A stretch of 64,000 nt of DNA from Bacteroidia bacterium (lineage in GTDB: Bacteria; Bacteroidota; Bacteroidia; Cytophagales; Cyclobacteriaceae): contig JAUIAO010000027.1 in NCBI GenBank assembly GCA_030425425.1, positions 722 to 64,721 on the forward strand, given 5' to 3'. Shown here in pieces: positions 39,040 through 43,723 of the stretch; the first letter of the stretch is position 1; every line of letters begins with the position of its first letter. A model generated the notes under the pieces. The model was given only the letters and a program-made list of their open reading frames with translations. It did no database searches and had not been told where the DNA came from. The position numbers were made by a program, and so were the translations under genes.

Positions 39040-39249
39040 AAGAGATGGCAAGATCTTGGTTTTGACTTATTCCCATTTATTATTTGGTGTAAAGCCACCT
39101 AATCAAGATAAAACCTAAATATTCTGGACATGTTAAGAATATTTTTAATAAAGTAAAAGATTGCTGATATAATTTGCAATTATTCTTCGGTTTCGGCGTG
39201 TAGTTGATAATACTTACCTTCGCACTCGTTTTTGGTAAAGGACAATACT

Positions 39250-39720
39250 ATGGAGAAATATATTGGGATCATCAGCATCGTCATTTTTACAGTTCAATCA
39301 TCCTTTGGGCAAATCGCTATGTCAGTAGATGCTGCGGAAAGCCAGGGCATTTCATTGAATAATTTAGAGTCCAGTTATGCGGATGGAGTACATAGCAATC
39401 CAGACTCTGCTGTGTTTGCAGATGTGCAGAATGAGTATATCAAGGCATACTACGATATGATCCAAGAGATCAATACCTATTTGAATACCAATAATTTTAA
39501 GTGGGGTGGTTTGATCCGCTGTACCAACAATATTTATTTCAATGAAGAAGGACGTGTGGATTATTTCATTTATGAATTTGAAGAAGGTGAGCTACAGGAT
39601 GAAAGATTGGAGGAATTTGATCAACTTCTAAATGAATTTATCGCCGACTATCAGTTTCCAATGACTAAGAGTCAAAAATTCAGTCAATGTAGTCCGGTTA
39701 ATTTTAGGGATGTTCTTTAA
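39250..39720 (+). CDS. Secreted hypothetical protein
   Basis: Signal peptide ending SFG-Q; no family confidently recognised. Confidence 0.65.
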   Translation: MEKYIGIISIVIFTVQSSFGQIAMSVDAAESQGISLNNLESSYADGVHSNPDSAVFADVQNEYIKAYYDMIQEINTYLNTNNFKWGGLIRCTNNIYFNEEGRVDYFIYEFEEGELQDERLEEFDQLLNEFIADYQFPMTKSQKFSQCSPVNFRDVL

Positions 39721-39901: not shown

Positions 39902-41854
39902 TTGAAGTCTTTTAATGTCAATTCTATAATTGATCCGGCTATTCTGGAACTCGGATCAGAAATTCGTTTAAAAAACGGTGAAATTCTGTCCCAACAATTC
40001 GGAAGAGCAAATGACTTTTATCTTTTAAAATCCGGCAAGGTAAAATTCTATCTTTCTCTTAGTGATGAAGATCAGGAATTTGAGGTCGGAGAAAGTGGTC
40101 AAAAGTTAACCCCAGTGGGGTGGAGTGGATTCAATCCACCAGGAAGATACGCTACCACAGTCAAGGTATATTCTCATCATGCGATTTTCTATAAGTGGGA
40201 TCATCAGGTGCTCAAAGAGTATTTTGATGCGCATCATGACGCAGCGATGAACTTTCTACGGGAAATGAATGCGCGAGCTAGAGATCTCATCAAAATTGCA
40301 GTAGAAAAACTCTCTACCAGCGGCCCGTCCTTGATTCATGAAAGCATTCCAAAATCCGAAGAATTTAGGCTGTCAGAGCCACTACATCAGGAGGAGTTTG
40401 TACAATTTCTTGGCAAGTCAAGCTTTTTCGAAGTATTTGACGAGACACCTCTTGAGTTTTTAGGTCAGGGTATAGAACGAAGAGTTTATGCAGCTAATGC
40501 TGTCCTCTATCATCAAAATACTCCTGCAGACGGGATTTACATTCTGGATACAGGGAAGGTGAGATTTAGCTATCAGGGAGCAAATGAAACTACCGTAAGT
40601 TTCCGGCAAATAGATACACCAGGGTTTGTGCTTGGTTGGTCCAGCGCAGTAGGAAAACCAAATATCATTAACGCTCATGCGGTAAGGGAAACTACAGTCC
40701 ATTTTATTCCTCAAAAAACGCTTGACAGAGTATTTCGACTCAACCCTGATTTCGCACCCAAATATTTCAGAAGACTACTTTGGCTCATCAGCCATCAATT
40801 GCAGGCCATTCGTGCCCGAGTCATAGCTTCATCGCTGGATACCGAAGTGATTGCCATTAGTAACTTAATAGATCAAAACAGTGCCAGGCTGACTTTATCA
40901 TCCCCGCTCCATAAAATACCGCATCTGCTAGACAATAAACTTACTGTAGCGGATGCACTCAACACACTAGAAAATCTTCGTGAGAACGGAACCACCTTGG
41001 AAAAGACAGTGGCCCTCACAGCGCTGGATATTTTGGATGAGATAAAAAAAGAACAGGATTTTTATGCCGGGTTGGTCAATGTTTACAATGGTGTAGTCAA
41101 AGCTCCACCGGAACTAGGCCATAGTGAAGTGCGTAAAATATGTGCTCAGGAATATGAAAATGTATTTAGCAAAACGAATTATATCATCACAGGTAAGGAA
41201 AACTTACCTGATGAGCCTGGTAATATTTTCATTTATAATCATCTGAGAAATCATCCTTATAATACATTACCTAATCAATTTCAGATCACATTAGACTCAC
41301 ATTTCATCAGTGCTATGGTGCTGTTCCCAAAGTACGGAGATCCGGGGTTGAGGATTGTAAGAGTGGGACTGAGCAAGGAGTACGCTCATCAGGAGTATTA
41401 TCAAAGGCAAGGTCATATTGACGTTTTTACCCAGGATTCTGGAAAAATCACTAAAAAACGTAAGGAACAGGTTAGGCAAATGTTTTACAATACCTCCGGT
41501 GAATATTTGCAAAATGGGGGCAATCTCATCATCAGTCCGGAAGGCAACTCTTACAGTACAGACGAATCTCCGGGTCCATTTAAGGCTGGCGCATTCAGTC
41601 TGGCCCTTTCCATGAAAAAAGAACCATGGATCGTGCCGCTGGCTATGGCCAATTTTGAGAAACGAGTTAGAAATAATGTTTTCTCTTGTATAGTTTTGCC
41701 ACCCTTTAGAGCTTCAGATCATATTAAAAACCCAGAGAGCAAAGAGGAAATTAAGCGTTTCCTGGAATCATATCAGCAAGAATACCGTGGATATGTAGAT
41801 TTGGCCTTGAAGCAGGCAGAAAATGCTCCAAAAACAACATGGAAGAACCAATAA
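39902..41854 (+). CDS. Tandem cyclic-nucleotide-binding domains fused to a PlsC-like acyltransferase domain
   Basis: FYLL.SG.V...VGW and GIYIL.TG.V...LGW cNMP folds; C-terminal IFIYNH, ISPEG, GPFKAG, IVP acyltransferase blocks. Confidence 0.75.
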   Translation: MKSFNVNSIIDPAILELGSEIRLKNGEILSQQFGRANDFYLLKSGKVKFYLSLSDEDQEFEVGESGQKLTPVGWSGFNPPGRYATTVKVYSHHAIFYKWDHQVLKEYFDAHHDAAMNFLREMNARARDLIKIAVEKLSTSGPSLIHESIPKSEEFRLSEPLHQEEFVQFLGKSSFFEVFDETPLEFLGQGIERRVYAANAVLYHQNTPADGIYILDTGKVRFSYQGANETTVSFRQIDTPGFVLGWSSAVGKPNIINAHAVRETTVHFIPQKTLDRVFRLNPDFAPKYFRRLLWLISHQLQAIRARVIASSLDTEVIAISNLIDQNSARLTLSSPLHKIPHLLDNKLTVADALNTLENLRENGTTLEKTVALTALDILDEIKKEQDFYAGLVNVYNGVVKAPPELGHSEVRKICAQEYENVFSKTNYIITGKENLPDEPGNIFIYNHLRNHPYNTLPNQFQITLDSHFISAMVLFPKYGDPGLRIVRVGLSKEYAHQEYYQRQGHIDVFTQDSGKITKKRKEQVRQMFYNTSGEYLQNGGNLIISPEGNSYSTDESPGPFKAGAFSLALSMKKEPWIVPLAMANFEKRVRNNVFSCIVLPPFRASDHIKNPESKEEIKRFLESYQQEYRGYVDLALKQAENAPKTTWKNQ

Positions 41855-42447
41855 TGAATTTTGAGTTCGAAGAAGAAATAGAGCTATTAGAGCGAAAAAT
41901 TATCGACCTTCCTAATAAAGACGACCTGGTGGTGTTTTATGGAAGTTCGTCCATACGTCTGTGGGAAAACATAGAGAACGATTTGGAACCTTTTAATGTA
42001 CTCAATCTTGGTTTTGGTGGCTCTTCATTTTCCTGGTGTATCTATTACTTTGATCGTTTGTTTTCTAAAATCAAACCCAAACATCTGGTGATCTATGTCG
42101 GTGACAATGATCTGGCCAATGGCATCCCTCCAGAGAAAGTATTGAAGAAGTTCAGAGTGCTTGTAAATCTGGTTAGAGTGAATTTCCCGCATATTCCTCT
42201 AGATTTCATTTCGATCAAGCCTAGCCCAATTCGAACTTATTTGCAGCCAGAAATCAGACTTACCAATAATCTCATTAGAAAAGAACTAAGTACAATCAAT
42301 AAGGCCAGTTTGATTAATATCTATGATTCGATGCTTGACGAGAAAAACGAGGCAAGGCCGGAACTATTCACCGAAGATCAGCTGCACATGAACCACAAAG
42401 GATATATTATCTGGAAGGGCGTGGTGAGAAAGCATTTTGGTATTTAG
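41854..42447 (+). CDS. SGNH/GDSL hydrolase
   Basis: FYGSSSI, GFGGS, YVGDND, D.LH blocks; TAATG stop/start overlap with the upstream gene. Confidence 0.9.
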   Translation: MNFEFEEEIELLERKIIDLPNKDDLVVFYGSSSIRLWENIENDLEPFNVLNLGFGGSSFSWCIYYFDRLFSKIKPKHLVIYVGDNDLANGIPPEKVLKKFRVLVNLVRVNFPHIPLDFISIKPSPIRTYLQPEIRLTNNLIRKELSTINKASLINIYDSMLDEKNEARPELFTEDQLHMNHKGYIIWKGVVRKHFGI

Positions 42448-42627: not shown

Positions 42628-43260
42628 ATGAAAAATATTTGGATATTATTCGCTCTGTTTTTGACTATTGGCTGTAGCCAGAAGTCCTTCAAAACGAAGT
42701 GGACAGAAGAAAAAGCACCTGAGACCTTTAAAGCGCGTTTCGAAACTACAAAAGGCAATTTTGATATCTATGCCGAGCGGGAATGGTCACCAGCTGGTGT
42801 AGACCGATTATATCAGCTGATCAAGCGTGAATTTTATACGGATATAGCCTTATATCGGGTGGTTCCAAACTTTGTTGTTCAATTCGGTATCAACAATGAT
42901 AGCTTGCTTAATAAACAATGGGAAAATGTGATCATTCCTGATGAAGAGGTGAAGAAGAAGAACCTGAAAGGCACCATTTCATTTGCCCGGGCAGGAAAAG
43001 AAACGAGATCCACGCAGCTTTTCATTAACCTCAAAAGCAATAGCCCATATTTAGATGAAATAAGCGGCGGTGGTGTAACGGGCTTTCCTGTTGTGGCCGA
43101 AGTGACCGATGGAATGGATGTGGTCATGGAGTTTTATGATCAATATGGCAATGAACCAGCCACCAAACAAGGTCAGATCTATGCCAAAGGCAATGAGTAT
43201 CTGAGAGAAGAATATCCGGAGCTTGATTACATCGTCAAGGCTTATCTGCTGAAGGATTAG
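42628..43260 (+). CDS. Cyclophilin-type peptidyl-prolyl isomerase, lipoprotein
   Basis: Lipobox TIGC; FETTKG.F, RVVPNFVVQFG, GTISFARAG, TQLFINL. Confidence 0.9.
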   Translation: MKNIWILFALFLTIGCSQKSFKTKWTEEKAPETFKARFETTKGNFDIYAEREWSPAGVDRLYQLIKREFYTDIALYRVVPNFVVQFGINNDSLLNKQWENVIIPDEEVKKKNLKGTISFARAGKETRSTQLFINLKSNSPYLDEISGGGVTGFPVVAEVTDGMDVVMEFYDQYGNEPATKQGQIYAKGNEYLREEYPELDYIVKAYLLKD

Positions 43261-43723
43261 AAGTATTGGTTGTTGTCTGATGCCCAATGCCGGGTGTTTG
43301 TGATTGGTAGAAACGATAATTCCTAACTCCTCTTATTAAGGCTTTAATTGAAACAATTGTAAACCCCAGCATGAATCCAACGGGAATCAAGTCATCAAAG
43401 GTGAGGTTCTTGATAGAATCTACTTTTAGTGCAAAATCCTTGATTACAACAATGGTATATGTTAAAATAATCACGGAAAGCACAAATGTCATGAAATTCT
43501 CTTTCAATGAGCTTTTATCAGCAACACCATTTTCATCAACCAAATACGTGAATTCACAATTTTCGCATTTATTGATCCCTTTTTCTTTGATTGGGGTAGC
43601 ATAGTAACAATTAGGACACTTCGTTTTGTCATTTTTTGGATAAAACCGTCCAGTTGAGATGGTAAATCTTACTAGAAAAACAAGCCCAAATAATATTACG
43701 AACCAGACAATAATTAAAATCAT
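43235..43723 (-). CDS. Hypothetical membrane protein with zinc ribbon
   Basis: TM-CPNC..CENC-TM-TM. Confidence 0.55.
   Translation of the reverse strand: MILIIVWFVILFGLVFLVRFTISTGRFYPKNDKTKCPNCYYATPIKEKGINKCENCEFTYLVDENGVADKSSLKENFMTFVLSVIILTYTIVVIKDFALKVDSIKNLTFDDLIPVGFMLGFTIVSIKALIRGVRNYRFYQSQTPGIGHQTTTNTSNPSADKP

What the first reader, a model, noticed from the sequence alone, without database searches (positions are those of the whole stretch)
39902..42447. Ligand-gated acylation/de-acylation pair: (cNMP)2-acyltransferase coupled to an SGNH hydrolase
Seen: a 650-aa protein with two cNMP-binding folds whose phosphate-binding cassettes are non-canonical (GW instead of GE in both; Arg kept only in the first). 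A PlsC-like domain follows, with NH, PEG and IVP blocks and a displaced catalytic Asp. The next gene, an SGNH hydrolase, starts in its stop codon (TAATG). Established: cNMP-regulated lipid enzymes are known with patatin domains (NTE-like). Inference: an uncharacterised signal-controlled lipid-remodelling or acylation cycle, possibly responding to a non-cAMP ligand.
Basis: partly seen in the sequence, partly recalled or inferred. Interest (0 to 1): 0.6.

Follow-up and report, generated by a model that had tools for sequence, protein, structure and literature searches.

The report
Sensor-fused acyltransferase with dedicated esterase partner
A marine Cytophagales genome carries an uncharacterised two-gene unit, an unusual PlsC-type acyltransferase fused to two altered "cyclic-nucleotide" sensor domains plus an acetylesterase-like hydrolase; the same unit recurs, split, fused or with a different esterase, in four bacterial phyla, and neither its signal nor its substrate is known.

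Summary
ORF 39902-41854 (650 aa) has two CNB domains, a helical linker and an LPLAT-fold acyltransferase (AT). The SGNH gene starts in its stop codon (TAATG).

- **Sensor:** both phosphate-binding cassettes read GW instead of GE, and only the first keeps the Arg.
- **AT motif:** the catalytic His is kept. The HX4D Asp slot is Pro. A near-invariant 12-13-residue insertion (NTLPN-FQ-TLDSH) moves the Asp to D465.
- **Partner:** all 80 related loci examined encode an esterase beside the AT. It is a downstream SGNH in Cytophagales and an in-frame SGNH fusion in Thermodesulfobacteriota/'Dadabacteria' MAGs. In 19 loci (Vicinamibacterales, one Polyangiaceae) it is an unrelated CE7 acetyl-esterase, transcribed divergently.
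- **Other forms:** sensor-less AT-SGNH fusions and one-CNB forms also exist.
- **Ligand:** the 99.4%-complete genome has no class I, III or IV nucleotide cyclase.

My best reading is a soluble acyl-transfer/de-acylation module gated by a non-cNMP ligand. The acyl group may be acetyl or another short chain, because both partner esterase families are closest to deacetylases. Substrate and ligand remain unknown.

The reverse coupling does not hold. Close SGNH relatives stand alone in many genomes that lack the AT.

The scan met this family before on other DNA (e1-4228854), with a similar verdict. I found no paper describing it. I rate it a new variant of a known kind, of moderate interest.

The parts
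39902..41854 (+). Gene for the 650-aa (CNB)2-linker-LPLAT acyltransferase (P0001), TTG start
   Evidence: ORF and translation. Pfam PF00027 x2 and PF01553. AF2 model pLDDT 88.2, pTM 0.80. Single copy in the genome.
39929..40321 (+). CNB-A domain (residues ~10-140), the probable ligand-binding sensor
   Evidence: Beta-barrel plus long helix in the AF2 model. The profile matches CNB domains only weakly; the best are the orphan CNB 3mdp and the regulator DNR, E ~1e-6.
40112..40159 (+). PBC-A cassette: P-x-G-W-S-G-x-x-x-P-x-R-x-x-T-T (residues 71-86). Trp replaces Glu and the Arg is kept.
   Evidence: W74 in 77/81 and R82 in 80/81 sequences from four phyla.
40388..40837 (+). CNB-B domain with its C-terminal helix (residues ~163-312)
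   Evidence: Pfam best stretch 194-279. Profile against PKG/PKA CNBs E 1e-19. Invariant R291, W294, R304 on the exit helix.
40622..40684 (+). PBC-B cassette (residues 241-261): G245-W246, with Asn in the Arg slot; degenerate
   Evidence: GW in 58/81 and AL in 16/81 sequences (the Acidobacteriota). W246 aligns with the PBC Glu and N254 with the Arg.
40838..41176 (+). All-helical linker (residues ~313-425) between sensor and catalytic domain
   Evidence: Helices 315-423 in the AF2 model, pLDDT about 83-95. Conserved positions S334, P340, L342-L343, G363, E367.
41177..41824 (+). LPLAT/AGPAT-fold acyltransferase domain (residues ~426-641)
   Evidence: Domain model pLDDT 91.4. VIA: TmPlsC 5kym Z 16.4, GPAT 1iuq Z 14.5, GPAT1 8e50 Z 13.7. 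Foldseek 5kym E 5e-7. hhalign to the genome's own PlsC-like proteins, probability 97%.
41237..41302 (+). Split catalytic motif N446-H447-L-x-N450-[insertion ...T455-L-P-N458-x-F460-Q461-x-T463]-L464-D465-S-H467
   Evidence: All named residues occur in 79-81 of 81 sequences. H447 aligns with the PlsC HX4D His. A 12-13-residue insertion precedes D465.
41534..41551 (+). Block III S-P-E-G-N-S (residues 545-550). PEG is kept; the usual Arg is an invariant Ser.
   Evidence: P546, E547, G548 and S550 in 79-81 of 81 sequences. Aligned to FPEGTR of TmPlsC.
41630..41638 (+). Block IV I-V-P (residues 577-579)
   Evidence: P579 in 80/81 sequences; alignment.
41852..41856 (+). TAATG stop/start overlap linking the two genes
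   Evidence: Read directly. In related loci the SGNH match begins between 7 nt before and about 100 nt after the end of the AT match, or the two are fused in frame.
41854..42447 (+). Gene for the 197-aa SGNH/GDSL esterase (P0124; an alternative ATG lies at 41839)
   Evidence: PF13472 40.8 bits against a cut-off of 32.9. Best solved relatives: sialate O-acetylesterase 6njc (1.8e-10) and PAF acetylhydrolase Ib (1.8e-8). 44% identical to the C-terminal domain of the fused 911-aa form.
41941..41952 (+). SGNH block I G30-S31-S32-S33 (nucleophile Ser32 inferred from the G-D-S position)
   Evidence: Invariant in 35 aligned homologues.
42376..42387 (+). SGNH block V D175-x-x-H178 (catalytic Asp/His)
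   Evidence: Invariant in 35 aligned homologues.

Best explanation
The two genes form a self-contained, cytoplasmic, ligand-gated acyl-ester module.

The C-terminal domain of the 650-aa protein is a divergent LPLAT-fold O-acyltransferase. It uses H447 with a relocated acid, D465. A family-specific insertion (NTLPN-FQ-T) helps shape the acceptor site.

The partner is a dedicated serine esterase acting on the same ester. It is an SGNH here, is fused in frame in some phyla, and is replaced by a CE7 esterase in Acidobacteriota. Both esterase types are closest to deacetylases and nothing in the module is membrane-anchored. I therefore favour a short (acetyl-type) acyl group on a soluble or peripheral substrate over bulk phospholipid acyl chains.

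The tandem CNB module is the switch. CNB-A binds a ligand that is probably not cAMP or cGMP, through the kept Arg82 and Thr85/Thr86 and the Trp74 that replaces the ribose-binding Glu. The change passes through the degenerate CNB-B and the helical linker to the catalytic domain.

**Shown:** architecture, folds, motif conservation, obligatory esterase neighbour, fusions, and absence of cyclases.
**Inferred:** activity, direction of the cycle, acyl length, ligand, and allostery.
For: **Fold and catalytic residues**
- LPLAT fold: TmPlsC Z 16.4, rmsd 3.4 over 189 residues; GPAT 14.5; GPAT1 13.7. Foldseek E 5e-7.
- hhalign to the genome's own PlsC-like proteins gives 97% probability, with H447 on the HX4D His.
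- N446, H447, N450, T455-N458, F460, Q461, D465, H467, R484, R487, E493, H496, Y499, Y500 and P546-G548 are kept in 79-81 of 81 sequences from four phyla. This argues for a live active site.

**Esterase partner**
- 61 of 80 loci have the SGNH immediately downstream or fused in frame. The other 19 have a CE7/AXE1 esterase divergently upstream.
- The CE7 partner scores 90.9 bits on PF05448 and E 2e-19 to cephalosporin-C deacetylase 1l7a.
- The SGNH catalytic blocks are invariant. Its nearest solved relatives are acetylhydrolases.
- AT-SGNH fusions also exist without any sensor.
- Flanking genes differ between lineages, so the pair is the unit.

**Localisation**
- No predicted membrane segment. 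By contrast, two of the genome's canonical PlsC-like proteins (L097, L098) start with clearly hydrophobic N-termini.

**Sensor**
- Tandem CNB fold like PKA-R/PKG. Trp sits at the Glu slot in both PBCs and Arg is kept only in A.
- One-CNB forms keep a GWS...R-A-T cassette.
- No PF00211, PF01295 or PF01928 cyclase in the 99.4%-complete genome. Three of nine module-bearing Cytophagales genomes lack PF00211.

**Precedent for an acetyl-using member of this fold**
- LPCAT1/2 are lyso-PAF acetyltransferases of the PlsC family (PMC12315963).
Against: - There is no biochemical data of any kind.
- Esterase specificity is inferred from relatives at roughly 20-25% identity, and SGNH specificity shifts easily.
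- The AT's closest folds (PlsC, GPAT, the tafazzin-containing entry 7zkq) all handle long-chain lipid substrates.
- Two invariant Arg residues (R484, R487) sit in the block that binds the glycerol-phosphate in GPAT/PlsC, which would suit a phospholipid-like acceptor.
- Sensor-less AT-SGNH fusions would be a futile cycle if the two activities simply oppose each other.
- Close SGNH relatives stand alone in many Cytophagales genomes that lack the AT (57 against 9 of 151). The esterase is therefore not exclusive to the module.
- Six of nine module-bearing genomes in the order do have class III cyclases, so a cyclic nucleotide is not excluded everywhere.
Confidence: 0.45

Rival explanations
1. Lands-cycle-type membrane-lipid remodelling. 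The esterase removes a long acyl chain from a membrane lipid, and the sensor-gated LPLAT re-acylates the lyso-lipid with another chain. The two enzymes cooperate rather than oppose each other.
For: The closest folds are PlsC, GPAT, GPAT1 and the tafazzin-containing entry 7zkq. Block II/III residues R484, R487 and P-E-G are kept. Cooperative action would explain why sensor-less AT-SGNH fusions exist. Source databases name the SGNH 'lysophospholipase L1-like esterase'.
Against: None of the proteins has a membrane segment or amphipathic anchor by hydropathy, whereas two of the genome's canonical PlsC-like proteins (L097, L098) start with clearly hydrophobic N-termini. The SGNH's nearest solved relatives are acetylhydrolases. 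In Acidobacteriota the partner is a CE7 enzyme; CE7 is known for acetyl esters of small molecules (CE7 example PMC6209228, listed and not read in full; otherwise my own knowledge). The block III Arg is an invariant Ser. The genome already has nine other PF01553 genes for housekeeping lipid synthesis.
Confidence: 0.25
2. Two-step acyl relay. The LPLAT domain loads an acyl group, and the esterase-fold partner acts as the terminal transferase rather than a hydrolase. This is how the SGNH domain works in OatA-type O-acetyltransferases (my own knowledge).
For: The order AT-then-SGNH is fixed in all fusions. Sensor-less fusions make sense for a relay. A CE7 esterase is reported to run in reverse, producing acetyl xylan from xylan (abstract of PMC6209228).
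Against: The CE7 partner is a separate, divergently transcribed gene. LPLAT enzymes transfer directly to an acceptor and form no acyl-enzyme (established knowledge of the family). No data favour transfer over hydrolysis.
Confidence: 0.1
3. An ordinary cAMP- or cGMP-gated enzyme. The CNB domains bind a canonical cyclic nucleotide despite the Glu-to-Trp change.
For: The fold is that of PKA-R/PKG tandem CNBs. PBC-A keeps the Arg and the Thr. Six of nine module-bearing genomes in the order have class III cyclases.
Against: The ribose-binding Glu is Trp in 77 of 81 sequences, and CNB-B lacks the Arg. The CNB-A profile matches canonical CNBs only weakly, and its best full-domain matches are 3mdp (an orphan CNB) and DNR, which I know as a non-cNMP sensor. 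This 99.4%-complete genome, and two other carriers, have no detectable cyclase.
Confidence: 0.1
4. The acyltransferase-like domain is a catalytically dead scaffold. It only tethers or regulates the esterase, which is the real enzyme of the pair.
For: The canonical HX4D Asp and the block III Arg are missing. Pfam matches only half of the profile. The SGNH subfamily works alone in many genomes.
Against: About 40 positions are near-invariant across four phyla, including His447, D465 and P-E-G at the positions of known catalytic blocks. That is the pattern of an active site, not a decayed one. The complex prediction gave no verdict either way (listed under tried and rejected).
Confidence: 0.07

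Closest known systems
PlsC / AGPAT-LPLAT superfamily (T. maritima PlsC 5KYM; plastid GPAT 1IUQ; human GPAT1 8E50)
   Same: Same alpha/beta fold (Z 13.7-16.4). The catalytic His sits at the same place. The P-E-G and I-V-P blocks are kept. The Pfam PF01553 score is above its cut-off.
   Different: The HX4D Asp slot is Pro here (Glu in Acidobacteriota). A conserved 12-13-residue insertion moves the Asp to +18. The block III Arg is Ser. There is no membrane anchor. It scores far below the NCBIfam AGPAT cut-off (19.9 against 102.95). A profile of the domain finds only 463 clusters among 1.84 billion proteins; none of the 150 hits listed is a PlsC-length protein matched at canonical-PlsC strength, and the weakest hits were not inspected.
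LPCAT1/LPCAT2 (lyso-PAF acetyltransferases) together with PAF acetylhydrolase Ib
   Same: This is a PlsC-family transferase that can use acetyl-CoA (PMC12315963), paired in function with an SGNH acetylhydrolase. That acetylhydrolase is among the best solved matches of the window's SGNH (1bwp/1fxw, E 2e-8 to 5e-7). LPCAT1/2 also carry a fused sensor, Ca2+-binding EF-hands (my own knowledge).
   Different: These are eukaryotic membrane proteins. There is no gene linkage or fusion between writer and eraser. The sensor type differs. Nothing shows that the bacterial substrate is a PAF-like lipid.
PKA-R / PKG tandem CNB modules
   Same: Two consecutive CNB beta-barrels, each with an exit helix (Foldseek E 2e-12). 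CNB-B profile E 1e-19.
   Different: The PBC Glu is Trp in both domains and the Arg is absent from CNB-B. The output is an acyltransferase, not a kinase. The host genome has no cyclase.
Mycobacterial Pat (cAMP-binding domain fused to a GNAT protein acetyltransferase) and NTE/PNPLA6-type CNB-patatin lipases
   Same: A CNB sensor is fused directly to an acyl-handling enzyme. These comparisons rest on my own knowledge; a weak NCBIfam Pat hit, E 0.1, is not significant.
   Different: The catalytic folds differ (GNAT and patatin against LPLAT). Those sensors have canonical cassettes. Neither system has an obligatory esterase partner.
CE7 acetyl xylan esterase / cephalosporin-C deacetylase (the partner in Acidobacteriota)
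   Same: PF05448 90.9 bits; E 2e-19 to 1l7a. A G-x-S-x-G nucleophile elbow and a C-terminal His are visible by eye.
   Different: The signature motifs are altered (RGF for RGQ, GRSFG for GxSQG, HS for HE, read by eye). It is always encoded head-to-head with the sensor-acyltransferase (19 of 19 loci).

Membership tests
LPLAT / PF01553 acyltransferase superfamily | Glycerolipid-acyltransferase alpha/beta fold | tested here: met
   VIA Z 16.4 to TmPlsC (rmsd 3.4, 189 aligned), 14.5 to GPAT 1iuq and 13.7 to GPAT1. Foldseek E 5e-7. Pfam 28.3 bits against a cut-off of 23.
LPLAT / PF01553 acyltransferase superfamily | Block I HX4D: catalytic His with Asp four residues on | tested here: not met
   His447 is present and aligned. 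Position +5 is Pro452 (P in 52, E in 20 and D in 2 of 81 sequences). An invariant Asp465 lies at +18, after a conserved insertion.
LPLAT / PF01553 acyltransferase superfamily | Block III (F/x)PEGTR and block IV (I/V)(V/I)P | tested here: inconclusive
   P546-E547-G548 and I577-V578-P579 are present and conserved. The block III Arg is an invariant Ser550.
PlsC proper (1-acyl-sn-glycerol-3-phosphate acyltransferase, TIGR00530) | Score above the curated family cut-off; N-terminal membrane-anchoring helices | tested here: not met
   TIGR00530 19.9 bits against a cut-off of 102.95. No hydrophobic segment (maximum KD-19 of 1.12). The genome has other, canonical PlsC-like genes.
LPLAT / PF01553 acyltransferase superfamily | Acyl-CoA- or acyl-ACP-dependent acyl transfer | not testable with these tools
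   Needs an enzyme assay.
Cyclic-nucleotide-binding domain (PF00027) | Eight-stranded beta-barrel CNB fold | tested here: met
   Pfam 58.7 bits against a cut-off of 27.5, two stretches. Foldseek to PKA-R/PKG tandem CNBs E 2e-12.
Cyclic-nucleotide-binding domain (PF00027) | PBC Glu that binds the ribose 2'-OH | tested here: not met
   Trp74 (77 of 81) and Trp246 (58 of 81; Leu in 16) occupy that position.
Cyclic-nucleotide-binding domain (PF00027) | PBC Arg that binds the cyclic phosphate | tested here: inconclusive
   Arg82 is kept in CNB-A (80 of 81) but one position off the canonical P-R spacing. CNB-B has Asn254 instead.
Cyclic-nucleotide-binding domain (PF00027) | A cyclase in the same organism to make the ligand | tested here: not met
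   No PF00211, PF01295 or PF01928 match in the 99.36%-complete genome; the controls responded. Other cyclase types were not searched.
SGNH/GDSL hydrolase | Blocks I (Ser), II (Gly), III (Asn) and V (Asp-x-x-His) | tested here: met
   G30-S31-S32, G55-G56, N85 and D175/H178 are invariant in 35 homologues. PF13472 40.8 bits against a cut-off of 32.9.
Sialate-O-acetylesterase / PAF-AH Ib-like acetylhydrolase subgroup of SGNH | Specificity for acetyl esters | not testable with these tools
   Only similarity is available: 6njc E 1.8e-10 and 1bwp E 1.8e-8.

The most novel reading that the evidence does not exclude
This is a bacterial write/erase cycle for a small acetylated (short-acyl) signalling or storage molecule. 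The writer would be a PlsC-fold acetyltransferase switched by a CNB-type sensor that has been re-tooled (Glu to Trp) for a ligand other than a cyclic nucleotide. The eraser would be a dedicated deacetylase that evolution has replaced at least once with an unrelated fold. In logic it would be a prokaryotic counterpart of the LPCAT / PAF-acetylhydrolase pair.
Probability: 0.2. Interest if true: 0.8.

Novelty: new variant of a known kind. Interest (0 to 1): 0.55.

Why it matters
All three folds are textbook, but the combination has not been studied. My searches of the held paper library found no paper describing it. No curated family model names it, and databases label it only 'cyclic nucleotide-binding domain-containing protein' or 'PlsC'.

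It offers three testable things:
- An LPLAT enzyme whose catalytic dyad is split by a conserved insertion. This bears on how the fold positions its acid; my own recollection is that PatA and LpxM also deviate from HX4D.
- A CNB cassette (G-W-S...R..T-T) conserved across four phyla in organisms that may lack cyclic nucleotides. It is a candidate for a new CNB ligand class.
- A clear case of non-homologous partner replacement (SGNH by CE7). This narrows the chemistry of the unknown substrate.

Cultured carriers exist for experiments: Marinoscillum furvescens DSM 4134, M. luteum KCTC 23939, M. pacificum, Jiulongibacter sediminis and Persicobacter diffluens NBRC 15940.

Tried and rejected
- **Complex prediction.** Full-length sensor-acyltransferase with the SGNH, using alignments A1 and A3, gave no verdict (score 0.01). 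It is not evidence either way.
- **RNA evidence.** No RNA holder is listed for this stretch. Only DNA metagenome runs (biofloc, aquaculture, wastewater) hold it, so nothing can be said about expression or co-transcription.
- **Conserved third gene.** Flanks differ in every lineage examined. In the window the neighbours are sucD, a CxxCxxCC protein, an NAD-epimerase-like protein, an orphan ORF, cyclophilin, a PQ-loop protein and an M28 peptidase. None recurs.
- **Literature.** Three searches for CNB plus acyltransferase plus SGNH/GDSL found nothing on this architecture. The one paper holding all the terms (lipocone superfamily, PMC12419801) treats unrelated proteins.
- **ESM Atlas feature search** of the AT domain returned only generic 'acyltransferase family' clusters.
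- **Is the SGNH exclusive to the module?** Rejected. Its subfamily is found in 57 of 151 Cytophagales genomes against 9 for the AT. Six stand-alone loci have no AT and no shared neighbours. In a quick, unfinished tree they form their own clades on an unresolved backbone.
- **Promoter and terminator consensus scan.** Uninformative: sigma-70-type patterns are not suited to Bacteroidota.
- **Active-site geometry.** I could not inspect model coordinates. The claim that D465 sits where the HX4D Asp sits rests on sequence-profile alignment and secondary-structure position only.


Full report
**1. What is in the sequence**

The + strand carries an ORF at 39902-41854 (TTG start, 650 aa) and a second at 41854-42447 (197 aa; an alternative ATG lies at 41839). 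The stop TAA of the first (41852-41854) shares its last A with the ATG of the second. The protein collection holds the window's own product in the 197-aa form that begins there.

Pfam finds two cNMP_binding stretches (E 5.8e-16) and the C-terminal half of PF01553 Acyltransferase (28.3 bits, cut-off 23) in the first protein. It finds GDSL_2 (40.8 bits, cut-off 32.9) in the second. No curated NCBIfam model reaches its cut-off.

**2. Anatomy**

A full-length AlphaFold2 model built on 56 homologues is confident (pLDDT 88.2, pTM 0.80). It shows this order of parts:
- CNB-A (about residues 10-140)
- CNB-B (about 163-283) with a long exit helix (284-312)
- an all-helical linker (315-423)
- an alpha/beta domain (426-641)

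Foldseek matches the N-terminal half to the tandem CNBs of PKA regulatory subunits and PKG (E 2e-12).

The C-terminal domain modelled alone (pLDDT 91.4) is an LPLAT fold. VIA gives T. maritima PlsC Z 16.4 (rmsd 3.4, 189 aligned), the tafazzin-containing entry 7zkq_T 14.5, squash GPAT 14.5, human GPAT1 13.7, PatA 9.8 and LpxM 8.5. The next, unrelated hit scores 5.7. Foldseek gives 5e-7 to PlsC.

**3. The catalytic motif is split**

A profile of the domain aligned to TmPlsC, and to the genome's own canonical PlsC-like proteins, puts H447 on the HX4D histidine and S-P-E-G on F-P-E-G-T-R (hhalign probability 97%). After the His comes a 12-13-residue insertion. Then T-L-D465-S-H lines up with the Y-L-D of N-H-Q-S-Y-L-D.

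Position 452, where the Asp should be, is Pro in Cytophagales and the fused forms and Glu in Acidobacteriota. D465 is present in 79 of 81 sequences. D465 starts the helix that follows the His-bearing strand, which is where the HX4D Asp is expected. I could not check the geometry on coordinates.

The insertion itself (T455, L456, P457, N458, F460, Q461, T463) is practically invariant over four phyla. So are R484, R487, E493, H496, Y499 and Y500. That pattern indicates a working, specialised active site, not a decayed one.

**4. A sharply bounded family**

The profile of the domain finds only 463 representative clusters at E ≤ 1e-3 among 1.84 billion proteins. Their lengths and Pfam content give five architectures:
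- (CNB)2-AT, about 640-700 aa
- (CNB)2-AT-SGNH, about 860-910 aa
- CNB-AT, about 500 aa, with a separate GDSL gene downstream
- AT-SGNH without any sensor, about 450-486 aa (one cluster has 290 members)
- fragments

In the one-CNB forms the surviving domain often carries a G-W-S...R-A-T cassette like PBC-A of the window's protein. This suggests the cassette is the functional sensor and CNB-B an adaptor.

**5. The esterase partner is obligatory, and has been swapped**

A scan of one genome per species returned 80 loci out of at least 279 hits. They come from Cytophagales (Marinoscillum, Cyclobacteriaceae, Jiulongibacter, Persicobacter and others), Thermodesulfobacteriota/'Dadabacteria' MAGs, Vicinamibacterales (Acidobacteriota) and a Polyangiaceae MAG.
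- In 61 loci a homologue of the window's SGNH lies directly downstream on the same strand. It is a separate gene in Cytophagales, where its match begins between 7 nt before and about 100 nt after the end of the AT match. In 20 loci it is fused in frame. The fused domain is 44% identical to the window's SGNH.
- The other 19 loci have no SGNH within 5 kb. All 19 have an alpha/beta-hydrolase of the CE7 family (PF05448, 90.9 bits; E 2e-19 to cephalosporin-C deacetylase 1l7a) transcribed divergently right upstream.

So 80 of 80 acyltransferases have an esterase neighbour, drawn from two unrelated folds. Nothing else is conserved around the pair.

The reverse is not true. In 151 Cytophagales genomes the AT occurs in 9 (6 of 86 genera) but the SGNH subfamily occurs in 57. 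Stand-alone copies have no AT nearby and no common neighbours. In a quick tree they form clades of their own on an unresolved backbone.

**6. What the partners suggest about chemistry**

The SGNH has all four catalytic blocks. Its nearest solved relatives are sialate O-acetylesterase (1.8e-10) and PAF acetylhydrolase Ib subunits (about 2e-8 to 5e-7). The CE7 family is known for acetyl esters of small molecules.

Neither enzyme, nor the fused or sensor-less forms, has a predicted membrane segment. By contrast, two of the genome's canonical PlsC-like proteins (L097, L098) begin with clearly hydrophobic segments.

A PlsC-family enzyme that uses acetyl-CoA is known: LPCAT1/2, the lyso-PAF acetyltransferases (PMC12315963). 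Their product is the substrate of PAF-AH Ib. This parallel is a lead, not a demonstration. It makes a short-acyl, soluble-or-peripheral substrate at least as likely as bulk phospholipid remodelling.

**7. What the sensor suggests**

In HMM alignments Trp246 falls on the PBC Glu and Asn254 on the PBC Arg of PKG/PKA domains. CNB-A keeps Arg82 and Thr85/86 but also has Trp for Glu. Its best solved matches are an orphan CNB (3mdp) and the regulator DNR, not cAMP receptors.

The genome is 99.36% complete. It has no match to class III (PF00211), class I (PF01295) or CYTH (PF01928) cyclases, and the positive controls responded. It does contain 14 PF00027 matches. Of the nine module carriers in the order, three lack PF00211 and six have it. 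A non-cyclic-nucleotide ligand is therefore favoured, but a cNMP is not excluded in every host.

**8. Mechanism I commit to (confidence 0.45)**

A ligand binds CNB-A (Arg82, Thr85/86, stacking on Trp74). It repositions the CNB-B exit helix and the helical linker, as in other CNB switches. This opens or closes the LPLAT active site (H447/D465), which esterifies an unknown hydroxyl acceptor. The partner esterase removes that ester.

Steps shown: architecture, folds, conservation, linkage, fusion, partner replacement and absence of cyclases.
Steps inferred: all activities, the direction of the cycle, the acyl length, the ligand and the allostery.

It explains the sensor-less fusions better but fits the partners' affinities and the lack of anchors worse. 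Lesser rivals are a relay in which the esterase fold is the final transferase, an ordinary cNMP switch, and a dead scaffold domain.

**9. Novelty**

My searches of the held paper library found no paper on this architecture, and source names are generic. This scan has met the family before on other DNA. e1-4228854 was followed up and reached much the same verdict. e1-2279566 and e1-5076672 noted the NHLKNHE variant, which I confirm as the Acidobacterial form.

New here are:
- the CE7 replacement
- the sensor-less and one-CNB forms
- the insertion-split dyad
- the absence of cyclases
- the asymmetry of the SGNH coupling

I class it as a new variant of a known kind and score interest at 0.55.

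Noticed in passing
L086:3800-7380 and L087:1-2456 (metagenome contigs, sensor-less AT-SGNH fusion P0423): In one lineage the sensor-less AT-SGNH gene overlaps by 4 nt the end of a fused trehalose-6-phosphate synthase/phosphatase gene (Glyco_transf_20 + Trehalose_PPase). A GH15 trehalase-like gene sits next door. This is a possible hint at an acylated sugar substrate, but it was seen in one lineage only.
   Followed up: partly
L088, L090-L092: 458-7359: Another sensor-less AT-SGNH fusion follows, with a 6-nt gap, a run of an M20 peptidase gene and two amidohydrolase genes (Amidohydro_1/3, NagA-like) on the same strand.
   Followed up: no
whole genome G000: The genome has 14 cNMP_binding (PF00027) matches but no class I, III or IV (CYTH) cyclase. 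Its CNB-type domains in general probably sense things other than cyclic nucleotides.
   Followed up: partly
L007 (PBTY01000098.1) and L058 (CAYSDX010000053.1): A contig labelled 'Rickettsiales bacterium' carries a pair 65% identical to the Marinoscillum type. A contig labelled 'Spirochaetia' carries the Dadabacteria-type fusion. Both are probably mis-binned MAG contigs rather than real occurrences in those groups.
   Followed up: no
G069, G117, G148 (genus g51), AT matches; G039 SGNH match: Several matches are reported with '1 TAA inside'. This is most likely the profile running over the stop between the two adjacent genes, but a broken or read-through copy was not excluded.
   Followed up: no
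L107:4789-5517 and L111:3179-3922: Two of six stand-alone SGNH relatives sit next to a PF00756 'putative esterase' gene. This is a second esterase pairing without any acyltransferase.
   Followed up: no
window 39232-39720 (+) and 43235-43723 (-): Two ORFs of 162 aa have no Pfam match: one just upstream of the module with a hydrophobic N-terminus, one downstream with CxxC pairs and hydrophobic segments. Neither was seen beside the module in the other lineages whose neighbouring genes were listed.
   Followed up: partly
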